From: Dehalococcoidia bacterium
GTDB taxonomy: Bacteria > Chloroflexota > Dehalococcoidia > Bin125
Reading direction: 5' to 3'
Length of the DNA: 64,000 bases
Assembly: GCA_963663895.2 (NCBI GenBank)
Contig: CAXXRD010000002.1
Span: forward strand, 224,001 to 288,000
Both the position numbers and the translations under genes were made by a program. The notes under the pieces were generated by a model. That model did not search any database. It saw nothing but the letters and a program-made list of their open reading frames with translations, and was not told the origin of the DNA. Below, piece after piece: positions 11,949 to 21,505 of this stretch (the first letter of the stretch is position 1; each line of letters begins with the position of its first letter).

Positions 11949-12110
11949 TCCGGCGCGGTCATCGCGTTCGGGTCGCTGCGGATGCGCCGTCCTTCGCAGG
12001 ATCCGGGAGTCATGCCTGAGTGGGCGCACTTCAACACGGATCGGCATGAGTCCAGCCTTGCCCCTCGTTTACACCACCGTAAGGAGAGCGGTCACAAGAC
12101 ACAGGAGTGC

Positions 12111-12539
12111 ACGACGACGCTGAACATCTACCTCACATTCGACGACAACTGCCGCGAGGTCTTCGCGTTCTACCGTTCCGTCTTCGGCGGGGAATTTCCA
12201 GCACTACAAACCTTCGGCGACGGTCCGCCCGACATGGGCGTCCCGGACGACGCCAAGCACCGCATCATGCACGTCTCGCTGCCGGTTGGCGACAGCGTCC
12301 TGATGGGCAGCGATGCCAACCCCGCCTTCGGTCCCGGCCCCGGCGCCGGCACCAACTTCTCCATCAGCTACACCCCCACCAGCCGTGCCGACGCCGATAT
12401 AAAGTTTGCTGCGCTCGCTGCGGGCGGCAAGGTCTCGATGCCCATGGCCGACATGTTCTGGGGCAGCTATTTCGGCTCCTGCACGGATCAGTTCGGCATC
12501 GGCTGGCAGATCAACTGGGCACTGCCGCCATCCGACTGA
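12111..12539 (+). CDS. VOC/PhnB family protein (start uncertain)
   Basis: YLTFDDNCRE...FY.SVFGG, IMHVSL, LMGSD, FWGSYFGSCTDQFGIGWQIN; AGGAG SD followed by ACG rather than ATG. Confidence 0.8.
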   Translation, partial: TTTLNIYLTFDDNCREVFAFYRSVFGGEFPALQTFGDGPPDMGVPDDAKHRIMHVSLPVGDSVLMGSDANPAFGPGPGAGTNFSISYTPTSRADADIKFAALAAGGKVSMPMADMFWGSYFGSCTDQFGIGWQINWALPPSD

Positions 12540-12608
12540 CCAGGCGTCTCACGCCGGCGCCCGATTCCCCCCTTCCCGCCAGGCGTGCGGCTCCGGTCCA
12601 TCGGGCCC

Positions 12609-12794
12609 AAGCAGTTGCTGCGGCCGTTGGGGCGGGCGGCGGGGATCTCCCGGGTCCATGCCCATCGTTTCCGGCACACCTTCGCGACCTAGGCCATCGC
12701 CCATGACGCGCGCGAACTCGATGTCCAGCACCTGCTCGGCCACAGCACCCCGGACATGGTGCGCCGCTACAGCGCCACCGACGGCAGTGTCTAG
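12609..12794 (+). pseudogene. Tyrosine recombinase/integrase C-terminal fragment
   Basis: KQLLRPLGRAAGISRVHAHRFRHTFAT*AIAHDARELDVQHLLGHSTPDMVRRYS: HxxR, LLGH and catalytic Y; internal TAG, N-terminus absent. Confidence 0.85.
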
Positions 12795-13045
12795 GCAGCC
12801 TTCTCCCACAGCGATGGGGTGCTGGTGGAGGCGCACTGAACGGTGAGTCGTGGGAGACGGGTGTCCCCCAAGGCGATGAAGCGGTCAATGCAACAGACGA
12901 GCGGCGCCGTGGCGGATGCGACCCGCCCATGCATTCAAGCGGCCGTGATCTCGACCGTGAGGCTGCGGCCCACCGCGCCGAGCGCCTTACGTTCATCGTG
13001 CGCGAGGCGCGCAGGCACGGCGCCTGAGGACAACGGGGCTCCCGA

Positions 13046-14185
13046 CTACTCCCCGGCCCCGAGCAACCCCGCAGCGGCAGCCTCGTAGCCCAGCGGCGAC
13101 ACCGCCACGTGCTTCGTGAGGGCGTGCACGTCGCGCCAGGCGCGGGCCAGCGGCGATGATGCGTCGAGGGCGGCCGACCCCCCAGCCTCGAAGAGGAGCG
13201 TCGTGGCGCGGGCAGCGCTGTTGGCGGCGTGGATGGAGGCGAGAGACACGCGGGAGGCCTCCTCGCGCCCCAGGGCATCTCCCGCCGCGACGGTGTCCCA
13301 GCTCGACCGGGCGACCTCGAAGAACCAGGCGCGGGCGGCGCTCACAAGCGCCTCCGCCTCGCTGAGGCGAACGCGCACGCCCTGGCGGTCGCCCAGGGGC
13401 TCGCCCGTGTACAGCGTGCGGCGTGAGCCGGCGAGCGCGAGGAACTCGTCGATGGCGTGCCGCCCGATACCGAGCGCGACGGCCGCGAACGAAACCGCCG
13501 CGTGATGGTTGAAGGGGTAGTGGTAGAGCGGGCCGCGCTCGAAGGGCCAGTCGTCGAAGACGCCGAAGGTGCGGCGCAGGGGCACGAGGCTGCTCTCGAC
13601 GCGGAAGTCGTGGCTGCCCGTGCCCCGCATCCCGACGGGATCCCAGTTCTCGATGATCTCGACCTCGCTCGCGGGGAAGGCCATGGCGCGGATGACGGGG
13701 CCATCGCTGCCGTCCGCGGGACGTTCGCCCTCAAGGATGCAGTTGGCGGTGAAGAAGGTGGCGTGGTGGGCGCCGCTGGCGAAGTTCCAGTGCCCGCCGG
13801 CGAGGTAGTCGCTGTCGACGGGCCGGGCGGTACCGCCCGGCTTCCCCGAGCCCGCGATAAGCGCCTCCTTCGGCCCGAAGATCTCCGCCTTCGTGGCGGG
13901 CTCGAGGGCGCCCGCGAAGAGCCCGCCGCCCGTACCGATGGTGACGGCCCAGCCGAAGGAGCCGTCGATGCGGGAGGCGGCCTCGAACACCTCGACGGCA
14001 GTCGGCATGGGCATCTCAGGAGCGTCGATGGAGCGCGGCAACCACAGCCGGTATAGCCCTGCCTCGATGATGCGCTCGTTGACGGCAGGGGTCGTGCGCG
14101 CCTCGCGCTCGGAGCGCTCGGCCTCGGCGGCGACGAGCGGGGCCATGTCCCGGAGGGCGTCGAGGTAGGGTGCGGCGGCGTTCAC
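13046..14185 (-). CDS. Acyl-CoA dehydrogenase-like flavin-dependent hydroxylase (HsaA-like group D monooxygenase)
   Basis: G.WNFASG..HA, W...GMRGTGSHDF, PLARAWRDVH. Confidence 0.85.
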   Translation of the reverse strand: MNAAAPYLDALRDMAPLVAAEAERSEREARTTPAVNERIIEAGLYRLWLPRSIDAPEMPMPTAVEVFEAASRIDGSFGWAVTIGTGGGLFAGALEPATKAEIFGPKEALIAGSGKPGGTARPVDSDYLAGGHWNFASGAHHATFFTANCILEGERPADGSDGPVIRAMAFPASEVEIIENWDPVGMRGTGSHDFRVESSLVPLRRTFGVFDDWPFERGPLYHYPFNHHAAVSFAAVALGIGRHAIDEFLALAGSRRTLYTGEPLGDRQGVRVRLSEAEALVSAARAWFFEVARSSWDTVAAGDALGREEASRVSLASIHAANSAARATTLLFEAGGSAALDASSPLARAWRDVHALTKHVAVSPLGYEAAAAGLLGAGE

Positions 14186-14720
14186 AGGGGCAGGGTATCA
14201 GCGGCGGGCGTATCGTTCGGGGCTTATATCGCTGTGTACCCAGGGAAGAGAACCAGGCGTGCCTACTTCTGCTTGTGGCATGCGGCAGGTCCGCAGACGG
14301 CGACTCTCCGCCGGCAACGCCGGACGGACCAGTCGAGCCTGCCAAGCCGGATCCACCCCCATCCACCCCAGCACCGCCGACCGCGCCGCACGACACCCGG
14401 CCCGATAACGAAGATGACACCGATCCGCCGGTGGCGTGCACGGCGCAGGCCCCCAGCCACCCGCTGCCGCCCATACGCTACAACCGGCTCGATATCGAGG
14501 GGGGTGCCGGCGCGCCCGGCTTGGGCATCTCCCGAGGGAATGACCCCAGTAAAGGCAATTTTGACAGCCCAGGTCTCTGTTTCGACAGTCACCAGTCGCC
14601 TCATGTACGGTGCTTGACCCCTTTGTGATAAACCGAGTGGAGACAGCTGCCACGAGTCGACGAAGGCCAGGAACCAGCGTTGGATATCCAAAGCGGTAAG
14701 GCCACGTTACAAATCAAACT

Positions 14721-15236
14721 CTAGCTGCCAATAAAGCGGCGCCATGACAGATGTTTGCGGACCGCAGCGAGATAGGCGCCTTTGAATGGTGCGCTAGCGC
14801 TCAAGTCGATGTCCGCGATATTCATCTGTTCGTCCTGCTCAATGGGCTCCATCTCCCATGCACGACGCATTGCATCACCAGCTGTGTGCCTAGTTTCTCT
14901 GATCAATGCATCATATTTCTCAGCGACGTTCAGAGACTCGGTGTGTAGCCATGCAGCATGAAAAGCTAATCGCTCTTGCACCGCACGAATCTCAGTCGAG
15001 ATACGGATACGCTCGTCCTCGGGCATGCTCACTCGACGGCGGCGGATGACGAAGGGGAATTCTTCGTAGGCGACGACTGCAGCCAGCGCATCGGCGAATC
15101 GCTCCCGCCTGCGTGCCTTTGTCTCCCTACGTACGGTAAGCCAGCCACCAACGATCTGCCCGCTGAGCGCCAGTACACCAGGCAGCGCTGCCGCAACGAG
15201 GGCTGCGACGGCAATCGGCCATTCCAGTACTGCCAT
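14721..15236 (-). CDS. Putative CBASS effector: one N-terminal TM segment plus helical domain, family not recognised
   Basis: Third gene of a tightly packed operon after CD-NTase and E2; hydrophobic N-terminus followed by basic RRETKARRRER. Confidence 0.65.
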   Translation of the reverse strand: MAVLEWPIAVAALVAAALPGVLALSGQIVGGWLTVRRETKARRRERFADALAAVVAYEEFPFVIRRRRVSMPEDERIRISTEIRAVQERLAFHAAWLHTESLNVAEKYDALIRETRHTAGDAMRRAWEMEPIEQDEQMNIADIDLSASAPFKGAYLAAVRKHLSWRRFIGS

Positions 15237-15247
15237 GCTAGCTAAGG

Positions 15248-15745
15248 TCAAGTTGCGAGGTCCTTCCGAGCGAGGACACCGTGAGGGGCTTCAGGCCCGA
15301 GCCATTTGGCCTTACCGTATTTTGCAATGTCTTCTCGGTAAAATCCTTCGCGAATTAGGTGGGTTCGGACGTGGCCGAGGAGCGCAAGGAGCCCGTCTTC
15401 CTCTTGCCAGCGAGACTCACGCGGATCCCCCGGATACCACATGCAGAGCCTGATACGGCCTTTCCCTTCGACAAGGTATCGGTGTGGCGATTCCGTGGGA
15501 CCATCGACAACTACCCGAACCTCTTGGCCTCCGTCCGACCCTCCGAGCATGCCTATGCTGGGCAGGCTCAGTGGTACGAGGATGTCAACCTTACGTGGTT
15601 CAAATCGGTCTGGCTTGATGGTCACAAGATACCGAGTACCGATCGGCTCCCCAGGGACGCTGATCCGACGCTCTAGTTCAGGGTAGATGTCGAAGACACC
15701 ACGCTCGAACCATGGCTCAGCAAGCACCGAGCCTGTCGCCTCCAT
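15248..15745 (-). CDS. Prokaryotic E2 (ubiquitin-conjugating-like) protein
   Basis: SPHRY...RLCMWYP...W, with a Cys at the expected catalytic position; C-terminal W.GPEAPHG; overlaps the CD-NTase stop; start uncertain. Confidence 0.7.
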   Translation of the reverse strand: MEATGSVLAEPWFERGVFDIYPELERRISVPGEPIGTRYLVTIKPDRFEPRKVDILVPLSLPSIGMLGGSDGGQEVRVVVDGPTESPHRYLVEGKGRIRLCMWYPGDPRESRWQEEDGLLALLGHVRTHLIREGFYREDIAKYGKAKWLGPEAPHGVLARKDLAT

Positions 15746-16751
15746 ACGCGCGGGTGTCACGCTGACGTTCCCTGTCTTTGCTCAGCGCTGGGAATCCGGC
15801 GACCGTGAATAGCTTGCCGCCGCTCTCCAGGGATGTCCGCATTTCTGAGTCAGACACCGGGCATGCTTCAACTCGCGAGGGGAACAGTTGGGAGAGTGAG
15901 GTACGCACAGCGCATTCGTCTTCCGCATTGGCAAGGGCTTCACGCACCAACCGACCAGCCCGGGTCCAGCGCTTCACCGCTATCGAGCGCTTGAGCAGAG
16001 TCTTGATCGGGGGTGACACGCCAGCTGGATCGAGAGTCTCGTGCGCCTCAAGATCATCCGCTCCATACTCAAACAGTTCCGCGAGTGCAATCCCCAGGGA
16101 CTTGCCAGCCTCGACGCTCCCCAATGCAAGCGCTTCTATGTTGAACGAACAGATGGCTTTCTCCGAATACTCCACGTTCTCGCCCTTGGCCAACCGGATG
16201 ATCCGTGCCCGGTTCTGTCGGAGCGTTCTCGGCTCCGCAGTCAGCAGCCTCGTGTGGCATTCGGGATGGGAAGCATCCCAACCAGCCTTCTCAATGTTGG
16301 GGATCCACAGACCAGGCTGAGGATCCTTTCGTGTGAGAGCAACGATCAGGTCGACTTGAGGATCGGTGCCGTCCGACAAGGGCTCCCCGTAGGTGACGCG
16401 GATCGCTCGTTTTGTCACACGGAATGCGATGTCTGGATGCTCCGGCTTCAATTGCTCCCGGAGGAAGGCTCGCACGTCATTGATCACCTCGGAGGGCCCT
16501 TCACCCTCGCCGTCGGGGCCCAGACTCAAATAGGCGCGCCTGTCGAGGACGATTCCGCAGTCGGCATCGGTGTCGAAATTGGCTGTGCGGTGCGCGAGCG
16601 AACCGGACCAGTACGTCCGCAGACACCCGGAATATCTGGCCGAAGCCGTCAGCACCTCGTCGCGCCGTTTTCGAGCCGTCATGATGACGTCGTCCCCGGG
16701 GTGCAGCTTTTTGAGCACGTCCTCTAGAATCTCGTTCACATAATTCGTCAC
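15717..16751 (-). CDS. cGAS/DncV-like nucleotidyltransferase (CD-NTase, SMODS-type)
   Basis: SGSLAHRT..DTDAD Pol-beta motif, third Asp in VDLIVA, WIPN...W..SHP, SFNIE, DPAGVS; C-terminal TRAYGG. Confidence 0.8.
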   Translation of the reverse strand: MTNYVNEILEDVLKKLHPGDDVIMTARKRRDEVLTASARYSGCLRTYWSGSLAHRTANFDTDADCGIVLDRRAYLSLGPDGEGEGPSEVINDVRAFLREQLKPEHPDIAFRVTKRAIRVTYGEPLSDGTDPQVDLIVALTRKDPQPGLWIPNIEKAGWDASHPECHTRLLTAEPRTLRQNRARIIRLAKGENVEYSEKAICSFNIEALALGSVEAGKSLGIALAELFEYGADDLEAHETLDPAGVSPPIKTLLKRSIAVKRWTRAGRLVREALANAEDECAVRTSLSQLFPSRVEACPVSDSEMRTSLESGGKLFTVAGFPALSKDRERQRDTRAYGGDRLGAC

Positions 16752-16801
16752 GTTGCGATCCGCCGCCGCCGCGCGGTCAAACGGTCAGACCGCTACCACC
16801 T

Positions 16802-16830
16802 AGCCTATGTGCGCTTATCTCGAATGTCAA
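16802..16830 (-). promoter_or_regulatory. Sigma70-type promoter of the CD-NTase operon
   Basis: TTGACA-17 nt-TAGGCT on the minus strand, ~50 nt upstream of the CD-NTase start. Confidence 0.65.
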
Positions 16831-16925
16831 TATCACCTACGTATGAATGATGTTATTTTTACAAACTGTTGACGAAATTGACCTACCAGGCACTGTGTGG
16901 GATATTGGACTCTAAGAATCAGGAG

Positions 16926-17243
16926 TTGAACCTTCTGAAGATCGACGCTATCTATCGGCACGTTGGCGGTGAGATCCAGCGCGCGCGAAAGCGCCGCGGG
17001 ATGACCCAGAGTGCCTTAGCTACCCGTGCCGACCTCACCCGAACCTCAGTATGCAACATTGAATCTGGCCGGCAACGCCTGACCATCCATGCCCTGCTCA
17101 AGATGGCAGCTGCGCTCGACGTATCCCCTGCCGATCTGCTCCCAGATCCCCAGACTCCGCCTTTGCCCGACCTGCACATGTTGATGGAACGGGGAGCGAG
17201 CCGGGAGGAAGCGGATAGGCTGACACGCATTCTCTCTTCTTAG
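16926..17243 (+). CDS. XRE-family HTH regulator (CapH-like)
   Basis: IQRARKRRGMTQSALA...LTRTSVCNIESGRQ HTH; AGGAG before TTG 16926; divergent from CD-NTase. Confidence 0.85.
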   Translation: MNLLKIDAIYRHVGGEIQRARKRRGMTQSALATRADLTRTSVCNIESGRQRLTIHALLKMAAALDVSPADLLPDPQTPPLPDLHMLMERGASREEADRLTRILSS

Positions 17244-17252
17244 GAGCGAGCC

Positions 17253-17771
17253 ATGACGAGATTTATCTCCGAGGAGAAAATTAGACGTGAAGTGGAGACC
17301 CTTTTCGAACAGGTCGGCATTGAAGGACCTCCCGTTCCCGTAGAGGAGGTTGCGCGTTCACTAAACGCGCGTGTGATTCTCGAACCTTTCAAGACGGATC
17401 TGTCGGGCGTTCTCCATCTAGTGGAGGAGGGCCCCGTCATAGGTGTCAACTCGGCGCAGAGTCGAGCGCGCCAGCGATTTACCATCGCGCACGAGTTGGG
17501 GCACCTGAGATTGCACGGTGAGGAAACGTTCGTTGATCGGGCTTTCACTTTCCGGCGCGATCAGAAAGCAGCAGCAGGCACCGCGCGACAGGAAATCCAG
17601 GCCAATATTTTCGCAGCAGAATTGCTAATGCCGAAACGCTGGCTCGTCGAAGACATTGAGAATCAAGACATCGATATAGCGGATGATCAAGCGCTGCGGG
17701 ATCTAACGCAGCGCTATGACGTGAGCCATGCTGCGCTGGCATTTCGCCTTGCTAATCTACAGCTAGGGTAG
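17253..17771 (+). CDS. ImmA/IrrE family metallopeptidase (CapP-like)
   Basis: RQRFTIAHELGH (HExxH), EIQANIFAAELLMP. Confidence 0.9.
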   Translation: MTRFISEEKIRREVETLFEQVGIEGPPVPVEEVARSLNARVILEPFKTDLSGVLHLVEEGPVIGVNSAQSRARQRFTIAHELGHLRLHGEETFVDRAFTFRRDQKAAAGTARQEIQANIFAAELLMPKRWLVEDIENQDIDIADDQALRDLTQRYDVSHAALAFRLANLQLG

Positions 17772-17904
17772 AGGTCGAGGTCGACCACGTTCTCGTCGTG
17801 CATGTGGTCCTAGCCGTGCCCCTCACTCCGAGCGGGTCGCTCGGGATCGAGTAGGACCTGAGCCAGACGCACGCCTATCGATCCTGATCATTGGCCGTAC
17901 GCTA

Positions 17905-18470
17905 CTAGCTCTCGCATCCAACGCCATCCTGGTCCCGTCCGTCGAACCGATGCGGGTCGTTTCCGACGACCAGGAAGCGGCGATGGGGGATGTCACCATA
18001 GTCAAGGTCCGGCCGAAAGGGCGGGATGCACACATCGGGATACGACGGATCACAGCGGATACTGGACTCCGACGCCAGCGCGGGTGCCGCTACTGGCGCG
18101 GGTTCTGATGCCGCCTCACTATTGGCCGCCCCACAGCCAGCAAGCCACGCGGTGATGGTGACCTGCTCCGTCACGGTCAGAGTGAGAACCCACGCCTGCT
18201 TCACATCGCGGTCCTACCGCGCATAGGCGCACTGCTCGCCGCCGTGTCGATAATCATGGCCGCAATGCCGGTCAACTGGTCCGGCGTGTGACTCCCCTTG
18301 CTGGCGTTGAACGATTGCACCGTCAGGTTCAGGTCCACCCGATCACTGGAGAAGAGAGCCTTCATCGTTGCGGACCAGTCGCAGCCCCCCGACACGTGCG
18401 GATCCCGGAGCGCCACGTGGTGATCGTGCGTGATAGCCCGCGAATTCACGGCATCGTACGTTTCGTCCAA
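17905..18470 (-). pseudogene. Degraded secreted HNH (DUF1524-like) nuclease with C-terminal Excalibur-like domain
   Basis: HDHHVAL...SGG..W...NASKG and CDPSYPDVCIPP..PDLD...DPHRFDG.D.DGVGCES split across frames. Confidence 0.6.
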
Positions 18471-18645
18471 GTCGGTGCGGTCAGGCGTCCTTCACCCCCA
18501 GGTGGTGTCCCAGGAGGGAGGCTTGGCATAAGGAGTATTGTTGGCTGAAACTAAGGCACCCTGCGGGTGGCCTGGTTTAGGGCTAATTGTTGGGTCTAGA
18601 TCGAGAGCGATCGCAACAGGTGTGCATAATACGCGGATGGATTCC

Positions 18646-19521
18646 ATGACCGACCGAGTCCCCACCCGTGAAGAGCTATGCCTGCCGACCCTCCGGGTTC
18701 TTCAGCAGCGAGGCGGGTCGGCCTCCATTCGGGAGATCTCCGATGACATGGCGGTCCTCCTGGAGCTTCCGGATGCCGTGCGCGAGGTGGCTCACGGCGA
18801 TGGTCCGCAATCGGAGTTCGACTACCAGGCGGCCTGGGCACGGACCTTCCTGAAACACATGGACGCGGCCACGAACAGCAGCCGGGGCGTGTGGTCGATA
18901 ACCGAGCACGGAAGAGATCTCACCGCAGAGGCCGACACGGCAGAGGCCGTCGTTCAGGGCAGGATTCTTGAGCACATCCGAAGCTACCAGAAGTCCTTCA
19001 CCCGTCGGGCCAAGAACGCGCCCGCGGCTGATTCACTCGGCAGCACGGAAGACGACGCGGACACCGAATGGACAAACGAATTGCTCGGTGCGTTGAGGGA
19101 GATGCCCCCAGACGCCTTCGAGCGCCTCTGCCAACGGCTTCTCAGGGAAAAAGGATTCACCAAAGTGGAGGTCACCGGTCGCCCAGGCGACGGCGGAATT
19201 GACGGCATTGGCGTCCTGAGGGTCAATCTCATCTCGTTCCAGATCGTCTTCCAGTGCAAGCGCTATGCGGATTTGGTCGGCTCCAGGGCGATTCGTGACT
19301 TCCGGGGATCGATGGTAGGCCGCGCCGACAAAGGCCTCTTCATGACAACGGGCCGGTTCAGTCCGAGCGCGCAGCAGGAAGCCGTTCGCGATGGGGCTCC
19401 AGCCATCGACTTGATCGACGGAAATGAGCTGTGCGGTCTCCTAAAAGAGCTTGATCTCGGCGTACGGACCGAGACGGCCGAGAGAGTGATCGTTGAGGCG
19501 AGCTTTTTCGAGTCGATCTAG
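18646..19521 (+). CDS. mrr: Mrr family (type IV) restriction endonuclease
   Basis: Mrr N-terminal wHTH (WARTFLK...SRGVWSITE.G), FERLC..LL, DGGIDG, FQCKRY, IDLIDG. Confidence 0.9.
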   Translation: MTDRVPTREELCLPTLRVLQQRGGSASIREISDDMAVLLELPDAVREVAHGDGPQSEFDYQAAWARTFLKHMDAATNSSRGVWSITEHGRDLTAEADTAEAVVQGRILEHIRSYQKSFTRRAKNAPAADSLGSTEDDADTEWTNELLGALREMPPDAFERLCQRLLREKGFTKVEVTGRPGDGGIDGIGVLRVNLISFQIVFQCKRYADLVGSRAIRDFRGSMVGRADKGLFMTTGRFSPSAQQEAVRDGAPAIDLIDGNELCGLLKELDLGVRTETAERVIVEASFFESI

Positions 19522-19714
19522 GGTGGTTTCTTGGGTCAGGAGCCGCCGCCCAGGCCCGGCAGAAGCGCTCCCATTCCTCCAGCGATAGCTTGTCGTTCTG
19601 CAGCCGCCGGGCGGGCGCTGGATAAAGAACACCGTGCACGGCCACGCTCACCACCGCGGCGTACGCCGGCACGCTCGTCTAGGCAAAGGCAGCAAGGACC
19701 AGACCACGCTTGGG

Positions 19715-20425
19715 CTACAGACGTGGTCCTTGCGCGCCAGCCTCAGTCTCCCCCGTAAGTTCCCGCCCTCGCAGGAATCCGGCGCCGAGGATCACGGTCC
19801 ACGCCACCCATGGGAAGTAGCAAAGCCTGGCCAGCGTGATCATGTCGGGTTCGGGAACGTTGTGACCGATGATCAGCGCCACGAGGCAGACCAGGGAGAT
19901 CGCCGCCACCGCCAGCGCGGCCATCTTGCGGCGTCCCGATGGGAGGAGCGCCCAGAGACCCAGGTTGAACACCAGGAACCCGGATGCGACCGCCATACTC
20001 GACAGGATCGCGACGCCCGTATCCACGTGATAGACGGCGATGGCCCGATCCACGTCCCGTGCCGAGTCGAGGTCCGTCCCGGCGAGAACGTGGGCAAGCC
20101 CCGACGCGAGGATCCAGCCGAACACACCGACGGTCATGCAGAGGATGCCTAGGCGCGACAGCGCAGCAGCCATGCTGTCGCCGCCGATCGCGCGACTGAT
20201 ACCGGAGAACCCGTAGAGCATCAGGATCAGGCCGAGCGGCACCATGAGCGCCACAGTGTGGGCGATGGCGGCGTTCGATGCCAGCGCCCGAATGGTCGCC
20301 TCGGCGTCGCCGTACTCAGCCCGGTCGAAGACCAGCGCGCCCGGCTCCAGCAGGAAGAACGTCAGCGCCAGAACGGGGCCCGTGATCAGCCCCCAAGCCT
20401 CCAGCCTGTGCACACGCGATCCCAT
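19715..20425 (-). CDS. Hypothetical multi-pass membrane protein
   Basis: About 6 hydrophobic helices; GGAG SD before ATG 20425. Confidence 0.75.
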   Translation of the reverse strand: MGSRVHRLEAWGLITGPVLALTFFLLEPGALVFDRAEYGDAEATIRALASNAAIAHTVALMVPLGLILMLYGFSGISRAIGGDSMAAALSRLGILCMTVGVFGWILASGLAHVLAGTDLDSARDVDRAIAVYHVDTGVAILSSMAVASGFLVFNLGLWALLPSGRRKMAALAVAAISLVCLVALIIGHNVPEPDMITLARLCYFPWVAWTVILGAGFLRGRELTGETEAGAQGPRL

Positions 20426-20755
20426 GCTCCGCTCCCTTCGGCAGGACGGCACGATTCGCTACATCGTCTGGACGGTCCGGACCGGCAGCACCGGCGCGGC
20501 CGAACATGAGCATGATATAAGGACCGGTGTCGCGCACGACCATCCACTGGCGTGCGGCTCCGATAAGGTGACACGGAGAGAGTCGTCTCTCGCGCGGCGA
20601 TCGTCCGAACGAGCCACTGCCGTCCATATCCGGCGATAAAGAGAGCGTGCTGCGCGGTGGTGTTCCTGTGCGCAGGGAGCCATCGGGTATGATCGGCTTG
20701 CGGGTCGGAGGAGGCGATCATCCAGCGCACCCACGCCAAGTGAGAGGGAGTACCA

Positions 20756-21505
20756 GTGGATGGCCGAGTCATACATGCGTTGAGTGCGCTGCTCGTGGCG
20801 GCCGCGCTCCTGCCGGCGCTGGCCGCATGTGGGGGAACGGACACAGTGGTGATCGCCACGGTCGGCAATTACCACCCCTTTGACTTCATCAATGAGGAAG
20901 GTGAAATCGACGGCCTGGAGCGGGAATTGGGAGACGAGCTGTGCCGCCGCGCCGATCTGAAGTGTGCGTGGGTCCTGAATGATTGGGAAACGCTGATCCC
21001 CGACCTGATGGCGGAGGAGTTCGATGCCATCCTCGCCGGCATGAGCATCACTGCCGAACGGGAGGAACGGATCGACTTCACAGAGGCGTACTATCCCCCA
21101 ACTCCCTCGGTGTACGTGGCGCAGGCCGGTGCGGGGGACGCAGCCGCCCAAGGCACGATCGGCGCGACGGCCAACACCATCTACTCGGACTATTTCACAG
21201 CATTAGACAGGCCGTTCGTGTCGCTGGATGGCTCGATCGACGCCGTTGACGCCGTGCTCAAGGGAGAGGTAGATGCGGTCCTCGTGGACCACGGCTATGC
21301 CGTAGAGAGACTGGCGGAGTACGAGGGCCAACTGGCCATCGTGGGGCCGTCGGTGACGCTGGACCAGGGTCTCGGCATCGGCGTCCGTAAAGGCAGCGCG
21401 CTCAAGGACGCCTTCGACGCCGCCCTGGCGTCGATGAAGGCGGACGGCACTCTGAACGCGATCCTCCGCACGTGGATAGGGGAGGATGCGGCGACGTTCC
21501 AATAG
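20756..21505 (+). CDS. Polar amino acid ABC transporter substrate-binding lipoprotein
   Basis: LAAC lipobox, YHPFDF, FDAILAGMSITAER..IDFT, DGTL. Confidence 0.9.
   Translation: MDGRVIHALSALLVAAALLPALAACGGTDTVVIATVGNYHPFDFINEEGEIDGLERELGDELCRRADLKCAWVLNDWETLIPDLMAEEFDAILAGMSITAEREERIDFTEAYYPPTPSVYVAQAGAGDAAAQGTIGATANTIYSDYFTALDRPFVSLDGSIDAVDAVLKGEVDAVLVDHGYAVERLAEYEGQLAIVGPSVTLDQGLGIGVRKGSALKDAFDAALASMKADGTLNAILRTWIGEDAATFQ

What the first reader, a model, noticed from the sequence alone, without database searches (positions are those of the whole stretch)
14721..16751. CBASS-like operon: CD-NTase with GG tail + lone E2 + an unrecognised single-TM putative effector
Seen: three tightly packed, lower-GC minus-strand genes behind a TTGACA-17-TAGGCT promoter. 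They are a Pol-beta nucleotidyltransferase (GS...DxD...D) ending TRAYGG-DRLGAC, an E2-fold-like protein (SPHRY...LCMW), and a ~171-aa protein with one N-terminal hydrophobic helix and a helical soluble domain. No E1 or JAB gene is present. Known: short type II CBASS systems use an E2 alone to process and conjugate the cyclase C-terminal Gly. Inference: the third gene is the effector, but it does not resemble patatin, Cap4/SAVED, TIR-STING, 2TM-beta or 4TM effectors by eye. It may be a new cyclic-nucleotide-responsive membrane effector class, or the conjugation target itself. This is my best candidate for an undescribed system.
Basis: partly seen in the sequence, partly recalled or inferred. 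Interest (0 to 1): 0.85.

Follow-up and report, generated by a model that had tools for sequence, protein, structure and literature searches.

The report
E2-only CBASS with catalogued 1TM effector
This is an intact anti-phage CBASS operon (signal-making cyclase, a lone E2 regulator and a single-pass membrane effector) of a kind already listed in defence-system databases, although nobody appears to have worked out how that effector acts.

Summary
Three overlapping minus-strand genes sit in a lower-GC stretch: a CD-NTase (15717-16751), an E2 (15248-15745/15760) and a single-TM protein (14721-15236/15251).

The "undescribed system" reading does not hold. PADLOC already has models for all three: Cyclase PDLC00777 (E 1e-103), E2 PDLC00867 (E 1e-21) and "Effector 1TM" PDLC00666 (E 7e-28).

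The same cyclase-E2-1TM trio is present in 10 of 13 other loci that carry an effector homologue. These include Streptomyces and Rhodococcus plasmids.

The E2 model matches the Serratia E2-CBASS E2 best (Z 10.4). The cyclase ends in a conserved R/S-A/S-Y-G followed by a variable 2-8 residue tail in 10 of 10 intact cyclases.

The effector folds with high confidence (pLDDT 95.5) as a TM helix running into a cytoplasmic four-helix bundle. No specific structural relative was found.

My literature searches found this effector class only in lists; its mechanism is not described in what I could search.

Verdict: a new member of a known kind, with modest interest.

The parts
16802..16830 (-). Putative promoter TTGACA-17 nt-TAGGCT, 50 nt upstream of the cyclase start
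   Evidence: Read directly. Not listed by the consensus scan, so it remains unproven.
15717..16751 (-). CD-NTase (CBASS oligonucleotide cyclase), 344 aa. Active-site residues S49-G50-S51, D62, D64, D134.
   Evidence: PADLOC Cyclase PDLC00777 E 1e-103. NCBIfam CBASS_cyclase_b E 8.8e-17, below its curated cut-off. The active-site residues are invariant in alignment A4. The nearest solved relatives by profile are 6p8u/6p82/6p8j (E about 1e-15) and 9ntn 'CdnD' (E 7e-7). 6P82/6P8J/6P8U are PaCdnD, clade D (passage read).
15720..15755 (-). Cyclase C-terminus: conserved T-R-A-Y-G (residues 333-337; 15741-15755), then the variable tail G-D-R-L-G-A-C (15720-15740). This is the predicted E2 processing and conjugation site.
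   Evidence: T333, Y336 and G337 are invariant in 6 of 6 cyclases. Four further cyclases end in RAYG or RSYG plus a 5-8 residue tail. Removal of residues after the conserved Gly by the E2 is documented for the Serratia system (passages).
15248..15745 (-). E2 (UBC-fold) regulator, 165 aa from ATG 15745 (the ORF is open from GTG 15760). H88, C101 (15443-15445), H129, H155.
   Evidence: PADLOC E2 PDLC00867 E 1.1e-21, covering residues 79-161 only. AlphaFold model pLDDT 82.4. Best structural matches are the Serratia CdnG-E2 complex E2 chains: Foldseek probability 0.99, E 0.04; VIA Z 10.4, rmsd 3.7 A over 131 residues. Conserved residues.
14721..15236 (-). CBASS '1TM' effector, 171 aa from ATG 15236 (the ORF is open from TTG 15251). 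A TM helix is followed by a cytoplasmic four-helix bundle.
   Evidence: PADLOC Effector 1TM PDLC00666 E 6.7e-28 and PDLC00665 E 2.5e-18. No Pfam, NCBIfam or PHROG match. AlphaFold model pLDDT 95.5, pTM 0.83, all-helical. 935 representative clusters at E <= 0.001.
15138..15215 (-). Single hydrophobic (TM) segment of the effector, about residues 8-33, followed by a basic cluster
   Evidence: Only one window with Kyte-Doolittle hydropathy >= 1.6 (residues 1-31). Residues 34-80 hold 13 K/R against 8 D/E. The helix spanning 8-58 is continuous in the model.
16869..17243 (+). CapH-like HTH repressor, divergent from the CBASS operon
   Evidence: Pfam HTH_3 E 4e-13. PADLOC capH PDLC04142 E 5.2e-11.
17253..17771 (+). 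CapP-like ImmA/IrrE (M78) metallopeptidase with an HExxH motif
   Evidence: Pfam Peptidase_M78 E 4.2e-25. PADLOC capP PDLC04141 E 7.6e-33. The HELGH motif is visible in the translation.
18538..19521 (+). Neighbouring Mrr-type (type IV) restriction endonuclease in the same lower-GC stretch. It is a separate defence gene, not part of the CBASS operon.
   Evidence: Pfam Mrr_cat E 2.6e-31 and Mrr_N E 2e-18. PADLOC mREase_IV E 2.8e-26.

Best explanation
This is a complete short type II (E2-only) CBASS anti-phage operon. It has a '1TM' membrane effector, sits under a divergent CapH/CapP regulator pair, and lies in a small horizontally acquired defence islet.

Proposed mechanism. Only the gene identities, folds and conservation are shown here; every functional step is inferred by analogy.

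(1) CapH represses the shared promoter region. CapP cleaves CapH after DNA damage and raises expression.

(2) The E2, using Cys101 with His88 and His155, trims the variable tail after the cyclase's conserved Tyr336-Gly337. It then holds that Gly as a thioester or isopeptide. On infection, E2-driven conjugation activates the cyclase, as shown for the Serratia E2-CBASS.

(3) The clade-D-like CD-NTase makes a cyclic oligonucleotide. Its identity is unknown. A trinucleotide is plausible only from my recollection that PaCdnD, the nearest solved relative, makes cyclic tri-AMP; no call confirms that.

(4) The signal binds the cytoplasmic four-helix bundle of the single-pass effector. The likely site is the conserved basic and aromatic cluster at the membrane-distal tip (Y57, E59, R65-R67, R76, R78, W127, D135). 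Binding drives self-association or TM-helix rearrangement, which breaches the membrane and aborts the infection.
For: Identity of the parts: PADLOC hits for the cyclase, E2, 1TM effector, capH and capP.

Catalytic residues are conserved.

The E2 fold is closest to the Serratia E2-CBASS E2.

A conserved C-terminal Y-G plus a variable tail is present in 10 of 10 intact cyclases of such trios, the window included.

Synteny: among 13 other loci with an effector homologue, 10 have cyclase-E2-effector in the same order, 1 is cut by a contig end but has E2 plus effector, 1 has the effector beside a different cyclase family without an E2, and 1 has neither.

The effector model is highly confident (pLDDT 95.5). 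It has one N-terminal hydrophobic segment followed by a basic cluster, so the positive-inside rule places the bundle in the cytoplasm.

Residues conserved in at least 90% of 102 homologues are mostly Arg, plus Tyr, Trp, Glu, Gln and Asp. On a schematic helix-rise layout they concentrate near the bundle tip.

Accessory status: the effector model hits 1 of 41 genomes (own plus 40 relatives) and 2 of 401 in the phylum sample. GC dips over the locus.

Mechanistic precedents, passages read: E2 processing, thioester/isopeptide formation and poly-cGASylation in Serratia; CapH/CapP upstream of and divergent from CBASS operons, including ones with 1TM effectors.
Against: No experiment exists for this locus. 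Nucleotide synthesis, E2 conjugation, ligand binding by the bundle and membrane damage are all inferred.

The cyclase is not clade G like the studied Serratia enzyme. It is also shorter (344 aa against about 407), so the E2 docking mode may differ.

The lysine used for the isopeptide in Serratia E2 is not conserved here. The best Lys column near the E2 C-terminus holds Lys in 35% of 54 sequences.

The effector bundle has no recognisable nucleotide-binding domain. Its best structural matches are generic four-helix sensor bundles at Z 8-10, a range the tool says can arise from common helical arrangements.

The residue clustering at the bundle tip comes from a schematic layout, not from model coordinates.

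One homologue (L008) has no cyclase within the 6 kb fetched on each side.

The promoter is unverified.
Confidence: 0.8

Rival explanations
1. The third protein is not a nucleotide receptor. Instead it is the conjugation target or membrane anchor for the E2-charged cyclase, and it is activated by covalent attachment rather than by a diffusible signal.
For: It has no recognisable nucleotide-binding domain. It is almost always next to an E2 in the loci examined: 11 of 13, counting the contig-cut L003.
Against: No conserved lysine acceptor: the highest Lys frequency in any column is 23% across 102 homologues. L007 pairs the effector with a different cyclase family and no E2. In the studied E2-CBASS the conjugation partners are the E2 itself and other cyclase molecules (passages).
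Confidence: 0.07
2. The third protein is a KilB-like or holin-like lethal membrane protein of actinobacterial mobile elements. It merely travels with the cyclase-E2 pair and is controlled by expression level, not by a ligand.
For: In the protein language-model search, the nearest named clusters are KilB (PF27072) clusters. Scores were 0.96 for the whole protein and 0.91 and 0.89 for the soluble part alone. KilB of pIJ101 has the same overall plan, an N-terminal TM helix followed by an Arg/Ala-rich helical part. Homologues occur on Streptomyces, Rhodococcus and Clavibacter plasmids. One homologue (L008) has no cyclase nearby.
Against: Profile-profile comparison gives no homology. Probability was 18% with only the TM helix aligned, and 0.06% for the soluble domains alone. 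The 16 closest effector homologues carry no precomputed Pfam family, whereas all 120 listed KilB relatives carry PF27072. 12 of 13 other loci put the protein directly beside a CD-NTase.
Confidence: 0.08
3. The locus is a decaying or silent remnant with no current function.
For: It is a rare accessory element: 0 of 40 relatives carry it. One related locus (L009) has a frame-broken cyclase.
Against: All five genes are open, and their catalytic or conserved residues are intact. The overlapping starts suggest translational coupling.
Confidence: 0.05

Closest known systems
Serratia marcescens E2-CBASS (CdnG/cGAS + E2 + exonuclease + 2TM-SAVED); PDB 8yjy and 8hsb. Passages read from bioRxiv 10.1101/2022.05.25.493364 and PMC12948482.
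   Same: A lone E2 without E1 or JAB. The window's E2 model matches the Serratia E2 best (Z 10.4). His/Cys/His sit at near-identical positions: H88/C101/H155 here against H87/C101/H152 there. This match is by position number, not by alignment. The cyclase has a conserved C-terminal Gly followed by removable residues.
   Different: The cyclase here is clade-D-like and 344 aa, not clade G and about 407 aa. The E2s share only 17-18% identity and show no sequence-level PDB hit. The effector is a 1TM four-helix bundle rather than 2TM-SAVED. There is no exonuclease gene. CapH/CapP regulators are present.
Actinobacterial cyclase-E2-1TM operons already covered by PADLOC models, for example on Streptomyces longwoodensis plasmid NZ_CP109035.1 (L011) and Rhodococcus sp. 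WAY2 pRWAY01 (L012)
   Same: The same three genes in the same order. L011 hits the same three PADLOC models at E 5.6e-174, 1.4e-79 and 6.9e-27. L011 also has a CapP-like peptidase upstream.
   Different: L011 is 50% identical to the window effector over 68% of its length. In L011 and L005 the peptidase is a long (346 aa) same-strand gene, not a split divergent CapH+CapP pair. RefSeq annotates these genes as hypothetical proteins.
CapH/CapP regulator module of CBASS (E. coli MS115-1 type III system); passages read from bioRxiv 10.1101/2022.04.27.489752
   Same: An HTH protein plus an M78/ImmA-type Zn peptidase, encoded upstream of the CBASS core genes on the opposite strand.
   Different: Here it is attached to an E2-only system with a 1TM effector. 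Cleavage of CapH and a DNA-damage response are not tested.
Other nucleotide-gated CBASS membrane effectors (2TM-SAVED, Cap14, Cap15). Known to me from listings and passages only, plus recall.
   Same: Expected working principle: ligand-triggered membrane disruption leading to abortive infection (passage).
   Different: There is no SAVED or beta-barrel sensor. The soluble part is an all-helical bundle continuous with a single TM helix. No PADLOC model of those classes matched at E <= 0.1.
Four-helix-bundle sensor domains of chemoreceptors and histidine kinases (HK9 3va9; Tar/Tsr; PcaY; NarX; TorS)
   Same: An antiparallel four-helix bundle that continues from a TM helix. VIA Z 8.3-9.8 over 108-146 residues.
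   Different: Those domains are periplasmic and share 4-11% identity with the effector. Foldseek gives nothing better than E 0.5. The tool warns that Z below about 13 for helical bundles may reflect only a common arrangement.
KilB of Streptomyces plasmid pIJ101 (Pfam PF27072)
   Same: A small actinobacterial protein with one N-terminal TM helix and an Arg/Ala-rich helical remainder. It is the nearest named look-alike by language-model features.
   Different: No profile-level homology.

Membership tests
CBASS, short type II (E2-only) | CD-NTase with the GS...DxD...D nucleotidyltransferase active site | tested here: met
   PADLOC Cyclase PDLC00777 E 1e-103. S49-G50-S51, D62, D64 and D134 are invariant in 6 of 6.
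CBASS, short type II (E2-only) | Stand-alone E2/UBC-fold protein with a catalytic Cys and an upstream His, and no E1 or JAB partner | tested here: met
   PADLOC E2 E 1.1e-21. The model matches Serratia E2 at Z 10.4, followed by UEV/UFC1/Cap2 at Z 7-8. H88 is invariant and C101 is conserved in at least 90% of 54 sequences. No E1 or JAB among the ORFs scanned in 11982-20452.
CBASS, short type II (E2-only) | Conserved C-terminal Gly on the cyclase, followed by removable residues | tested here: met
   Y-G plus a 2-8 residue variable tail in 10 of 10 intact cyclases.
CBASS, short type II (E2-only) | Covalent cyclase-E2 linkage, cyclic-oligonucleotide synthesis and phage protection | not testable with these tools
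   These need biochemistry and phage assays.
CBASS '1TM' effector class (PADLOC PDLC00666/PDLC00665) | Match to the family HMM | tested here: met
   E 6.7e-28 and E 2.5e-18. In the own genome, E 3.7e-27.
CBASS '1TM' effector class (PADLOC PDLC00666/PDLC00665) | One predicted TM helix | tested here: met
   One hydrophobic segment, about residues 7-33. The model has a continuous helix 8-58.
CBASS '1TM' effector class (PADLOC PDLC00666/PDLC00665) | Encoded next to a CD-NTase | tested here: met
   True in the window. Among 13 other loci: 10 have the full trio, 1 is contig-cut, 1 sits beside another cyclase family, and 1 has none.
CBASS '1TM' effector class (PADLOC PDLC00666/PDLC00665) | Activation by the cyclase product and membrane damage | not testable with these tools
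   No experimental study of this class turned up in searches.
CapH/CapP regulator pair | HTH protein plus M78/ImmA Zn-peptidase, divergent from the CBASS core genes | tested here: met
   Pfam HTH_3 and Peptidase_M78. PADLOC capH E 5.2e-11 and capP E 7.6e-33. The arrangement fits the passage.
SAVED/CARF, STING, patatin, Cap4/Cap5 nuclease, 2TM/4TM effectors | Match to the respective sensor or effector domains | tested here: not met
   No Pfam family at E <= 0.1. The only PADLOC hits are the two 1TM models. The model is all-helical.
KilB (PF27072) | Profile-level homology to KilB | tested here: not met
   hhalign probability 0.5%, 18% with only the TM helix aligned, and 0.06% for the soluble domains. 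The close homologues carry no PF27072. A fold-to-fold comparison was not possible.
4HB sensor domains (chemoreceptor / histidine-kinase type) | Specific structural or sequence relationship beyond a generic four-helix bundle | tested here: inconclusive
   VIA Z 8.3-9.8. Foldseek best E 0.5. A profile search against PDB sequences gave nothing credible.

The most novel reading that the evidence does not exclude
The 1TM effector's cytoplasmic four-helix bundle is itself a new kind of cyclic-oligonucleotide receptor, unrelated to SAVED/CARF, STING or cNMP-binding domains. It would read the signal through a conserved Arg/Tyr/Trp cluster at the bundle tip. It would then pass the signal down a continuous helix into a single TM segment, which assembles into a membrane lesion. 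That would make it a minimal receptor-executioner of about 170 residues.
Probability: 0.4. Interest if true: 0.6.

Novelty: new member of a known kind. Interest (0 to 1): 0.3.

Why it matters
As a system it is ordinary. The E2-only CBASS architecture, the 1TM effector class and the CapH/CapP regulators are all already catalogued.

Its value is as a clean, compact example outside the Proteobacteria. The closest locus is in a Dehalococcoidia genome assembled from a metagenome. Others lie in Actinomycetota, including plasmids.

It also belongs to a sub-type that differs from the one studied experimentally. It pairs a clade-D-like cyclase with an E2, and it uses an effector whose mode of action I could not find described.

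The family is large (935 representative clusters). It also models with unusually high confidence. Both make it a tractable target for working out how a ~170-residue single-pass protein could sense a nucleotide and kill a cell.

Tried and rejected
KilB lead. The ESM Atlas pointed to KilB clusters. I fetched pIJ101 KilB and built a 36-sequence KilB alignment, picked from 120 listed relatives out of 196 found. hhalign gave probabilities of 0.5%, 18% (TM helix only) and 0.06% (soluble parts). Homology is not supported.

Effector self-association. Complex prediction with two copies returned 'no answer' (score 0.01). This is neither support nor evidence against.

Effector structure searches. Foldseek against PDB gave best E 0.5 and against BFVD best E 0.3. 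No specific match.

Sequence searches. The effector profile against PDB gave only Spo0A and keratin at E about 0.006, judged spurious. PHROGs gave nothing for the cyclase, E2 or effector. tblastn of the effector against phages gave no match.

E2 against PDB by sequence. Nothing for the single sequence. The profile gave only a sub-threshold BIRC6 UBC hit at E 0.75, in the HPN...Cys register.

L008's upstream 358-aa ORF is not a cyclase. It has no PADLOC or Pfam hit, and hhalign probability is 0.15%.

Longer family members. I scanned 10 that I picked (251-382 aa) for fused domains. There were no Pfam domains except one weak Cation_ATPase_C hit at E 0.007.

Island borders and operators. No convincing flanking direct repeats or att-like sites in 14100-20700. 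Only one weak inverted repeat (75% complementary) in the divergent promoter region. No Rfam family in 12000-21000.

Expression. The look-up of sequencing runs listed 4 holders from one study and no RNA holder.

Literature on the 1TM effector. Searches found only class listings (passages). Two other '1TM' mentions concern unrelated systems. The classification paper I recall as the origin of the '1TM' label (Millman et al. 2020) is not held, so that attribution rests on the passage. The Mycobacterium abscessus CBASS paper describes an E1-E2 system with a patatin effector and is not relevant here.

Supplementary tables of the CapH/CapP and E2-CBASS papers were not consulted. They may list this exact sub-type.
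Full report
WHAT IS THERE

Three minus-strand ORFs are packed head to tail.
- 15717-16751: 344 aa.
- 15248-15760: 170 aa from GTG. Alignment with relatives makes ATG 15745 the likelier start, giving 165 aa.
- 14721-15251: 176 aa from TTG. The protein collection holds the 171-aa form starting at ATG 15236 (P0001).

The first two genes overlap. The ATG of the second lies on the Tyr336-Gly337 codons of the first. The stop of the second overlaps the TTG of the third.

GC is 0.55-0.61 across 14500-18000, against 0.69-0.75 just upstream.

The consensus scan does not list it, and it finds no more promoter-like sites in the region than shuffled sequence gives. It remains a motif only.

IDENTITY OF THE GENES

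Pfam gives nothing for any of the three proteins. NCBIfam gives only a sub-threshold CBASS_cyclase_b hit for the first.

The defence-specific PADLOC library recognises all three:
- Cyclase PDLC00777, E 1e-103.
- E2 PDLC00867, E 1.1e-21, covering residues 79-161 only.
- 'Effector 1TM' PDLC00666 at E 6.7e-28 and PDLC00665 at E 2.5e-18.

[quoted passage not shown]'. I could not open the Millman paper itself.

Two genes lie divergently upstream: an HTH protein (16869-17243) and an M78/ImmA-type metallopeptidase with an HExxH motif (17253-17771). They match PADLOC capH (E 5.2e-11) and capP (E 7.6e-33), and Pfam HTH_3 and Peptidase_M78. This is exactly the arrangement described for CapH/CapP: upstream of the core genes, on the opposite strand, sharing the promoter region.

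An Mrr-type type IV restriction enzyme follows at 18538-19521. The lower-GC stretch therefore looks like a small defence islet.

I found no flanking repeats, no adjacent tRNA and no integrase.

The effector model hits only the window's genome among 41 genomes (own plus 40 relatives). It hits 2 of 401 in a phylum-wide sample. The locus is a rare accessory acquisition.

THE CYCLASE

S49-G50-S51, D62, D64 and D134 are invariant in the six cyclases aligned.

A profile of these cyclases finds, among solved structures, 6p8u/6p82/6p8j (E about 1e-15) and a chain named CdnD (E 7e-7). It finds no clade-G enzyme. A paper passage identifies 6P82/6P8J/6P8U as Pseudomonas aeruginosa CdnD, clade D.

This matters for comparison. 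A 2026 analysis reports that 73.65% of the cyclases in E2-only systems are clade G, and that they tend to be long. The window's 344-aa enzyme belongs to the minority.

Its C-terminus carries an invariant T..Y-G, followed by tails of 2-7 unrelated residues in the six aligned sequences. Four further cyclases from trios end in RAYG or RSYG plus 5-8 residues. That makes 10 of 10 intact cyclases. L009's cyclase is frame-broken and was left out.

In the window it is followed by seven removable residues, the first of which happens to be Gly.

THE E2

Fifty-four relatives share invariant H88-R89-Y90, H129 and H155, and Cys101 in at least 90%.

Sequence searches of the PDB fail. An AlphaFold model (pLDDT 82.4) does match. 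Its two best Foldseek hits are the E2 chains of the Serratia marcescens CdnG-E2 complex (probability 0.99, E 0.04). These are followed almost entirely by eukaryotic E2 and UEV proteins.

The second-look aligner gives Z 10.4 (rmsd 3.7 A, 131 residues, 18% identity) for the Serratia E2. The next group scores Z about 8 or less: TSG101 UEV, UFC1 and Cap2.

In the Serratia system the E2 alone carries out the whole cascade. It removes what follows the conserved Gly. It forms a Cys101 thioester and a Lys159 isopeptide with that Gly. It then builds poly-cyclase chains that activate signalling. H87, C101 and H152 are required (passages).

The window's H88/C101/H155 sit at nearly the same positions. This is by residue number; I did not align the two proteins residue by residue.

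The isopeptide lysine is not conserved in this sub-family. The best Lys column near the C-terminus holds Lys in 35% of sequences. The window does have K161.

THE EFFECTOR

The word-based search found only 16 close relatives, all unnamed or 'hypothetical' and without a Pfam family.

A profile search found 935 representative clusters at E <= 0.001 and 661 at E <= 1e-10. The family is large.

It has one hydrophobic segment, about residues 7-33, followed by a run of basic residues. By the positive-inside rule this places the rest of the protein in the cytoplasm. That placement is an inference.

With a 102-sequence alignment, AlphaFold gives pLDDT 95.5 and pTM 0.83. The model has a continuous helix 8-58, which is the TM segment running on into the cytoplasm, and then helices 72-100, 102-128 and 146-163. 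In short, it is a membrane-tethered four-helix bundle.

Foldseek finds nothing significant in the PDB or in viral models.

The exhaustive aligner's best matches are four-helix sensor domains of histidine kinases and chemoreceptors, at Z 8.3-9.8. The tool itself warns that such values are common for helical bundles. I treat this as a description of shape, not as a relationship.

Residues conserved in at least 90% of 102 members are R42, R44, A50, Y57, E59, R65, R66, R67, R76, R78, Q87, L111, R116, G120, W127 and D135. On a schematic layout of the bundle, most of the polar ones lie towards the membrane-distal tip. I could not verify this on coordinates.

An arginine-rich patch flanked by Tyr and Trp is what one would expect for a site that binds a phosphate-bearing, base-stacking ligand. 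That reading is inference.

IS IT REALLY THE EFFECTOR?

I examined thirteen other loci that carry a homologue.
- Ten have cyclase-E2-homologue in the same order: L001, L002, L004, L005, L006, L009, L011, L012, L013, L015.
- L003 is cut by the contig end but has the E2 and the homologue.
- L007 has the homologue followed by a cyclase of another PADLOC family (PDLC00802, E 8.7e-38) and no E2.
- L008 has no cyclase within the 6 kb fetched on each side.

Travelling with two different cyclase families, once without an E2, fits an effector better than a conjugation substrate. So does the absence of any conserved lysine: the highest column frequency is 23%.

A two-copy co-folding job returned no answer and says nothing either way.

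THE KILB LEAD

The language-model atlas placed the protein, and also its soluble part alone, nearest to clusters carrying Pfam KilB. KilB is the plasmid 'kil' protein of Streptomyces pIJ101, and it has the same overall plan.

Profile-profile comparison gave no support, with probabilities of 0.5%, 18% (TM helix only) and 0.06%. The close homologues also lack the precomputed PF27072 tag that all listed KilB relatives carry.

I reject homology at the sequence level. A fold comparison remains open.

HOW IT MOST LIKELY WORKS

Shown here: gene identities, conserved residues, folds, synteny and accessory status.

Inferred by analogy with the cited systems:
- CapH represses the operon until CapP removes it.
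- The E2 trims the cyclase tail and holds Gly337 covalently.
- Infection shifts the E2 towards activating conjugation.
- The cyclase makes a cyclic oligonucleotide of unknown identity.
- The signal binds the effector's cytoplasmic bundle.
- The effector then self-associates and damages the membrane, which aborts the infection.

I give about 0.9 to the identification as an E2-only CBASS with a 1TM effector. I give about 0.4-0.5 to direct nucleotide sensing by the bundle.

COMPARISON AND NOVELTY

The closest studied system is the Serratia E2-CBASS. The window shares its lone E2, the conserved Gly and the E2 fold. It differs in cyclase clade and length, in the effector (1TM bundle against 2TM-SAVED), in lacking the exonuclease, and in having CapH/CapP.

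The closest sequences are unnamed metagenomic proteins and a Dehalococcoidia assembly. In that assembly the cyclase, E2 and effector are 67%, 62% and 60% identical to the window's.

Equivalent trios on Streptomyces and Rhodococcus plasmids are annotated only as hypothetical proteins.

Everything here is a member of a catalogued kind. What is not in print, as far as searches and the passages read show, is any structure or mechanism for the 1TM effector.

Verdict: a new member of a known kind, interest 0.3.

Noticed in passing
window 16869-17771 (+): A divergent CapH-like HTH gene and a CapP-like M78 metallopeptidase gene lie directly upstream of the operon. They probably control its expression.
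   Followed up: yes
window 18538-19521 (+): An Mrr-type (type IV, modification-dependent) restriction endonuclease with Mrr_N and Mrr_cat domains lies in the same lower-GC stretch. This suggests a small defence islet.
   Followed up: partly
window 17905-18470 (-): Two small ORFs (99 and 89 aa) lie between capP and mrr. The first has a Cys-rich C-terminus with only a very weak Excalibur hit (E 0.34). The second has no family hit. Their function is unknown, and they may be a broken gene.
   Followed up: partly
window 15741-15746 (-): The likely E2 start codon (ATG 15745-15743) sits on the cyclase's Tyr336-Gly337 codons. The E2 stop also overlaps the effector's TTG. This arrangement suggests translational coupling of all three genes.
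   Followed up: no
window 15521-15568 (-), about residues 60-75 of the E2: The window's E2 has a Gly/Ser-rich insertion of roughly 12-16 residues that is absent from the 7 relatives aligned. It is modelled with low confidence (pLDDT below 50 at residues 67-71).
   Followed up: no
L007:1662-3181: In this Dehalococcoidia assembly a 1TM effector homologue is followed by a cyclase of a different PADLOC family (PDLC00802), with no E2. That is a type I-like arrangement using the same effector class.
   Followed up: partly
L008:5908-6549: Actinocorallia aurantiaca carries a 1TM homologue (PDLC00666, E 4.7e-34) with no cyclase or E2 detected within the 6 kb fetched on each side. A TetR-family gene and an unassigned 358-aa ORF lie upstream.
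   Followed up: partly
L009:4623-5520: The cyclase of this otherwise intact trio matches in several reading frames. It is either a frameshifted gene or an assembly error.
   Followed up: no
L011:2028-3068 and L005:3429-4427: In the Streptomyces plasmid and Glycomyces loci, a long (about 340 aa) ImmA/IrrE peptidase lies upstream on the same strand as the trio. The window instead has a split, divergent CapH+CapP pair.
   Followed up: no
window 14721-15236 (-): Language-model features place the effector, even without its TM helix, nearest to KilB (PF27072) clusters of actinobacterial plasmids, yet profile comparison shows no homology. A fold-level comparison would settle whether this is a distant relationship or shared composition.
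   Followed up: partly
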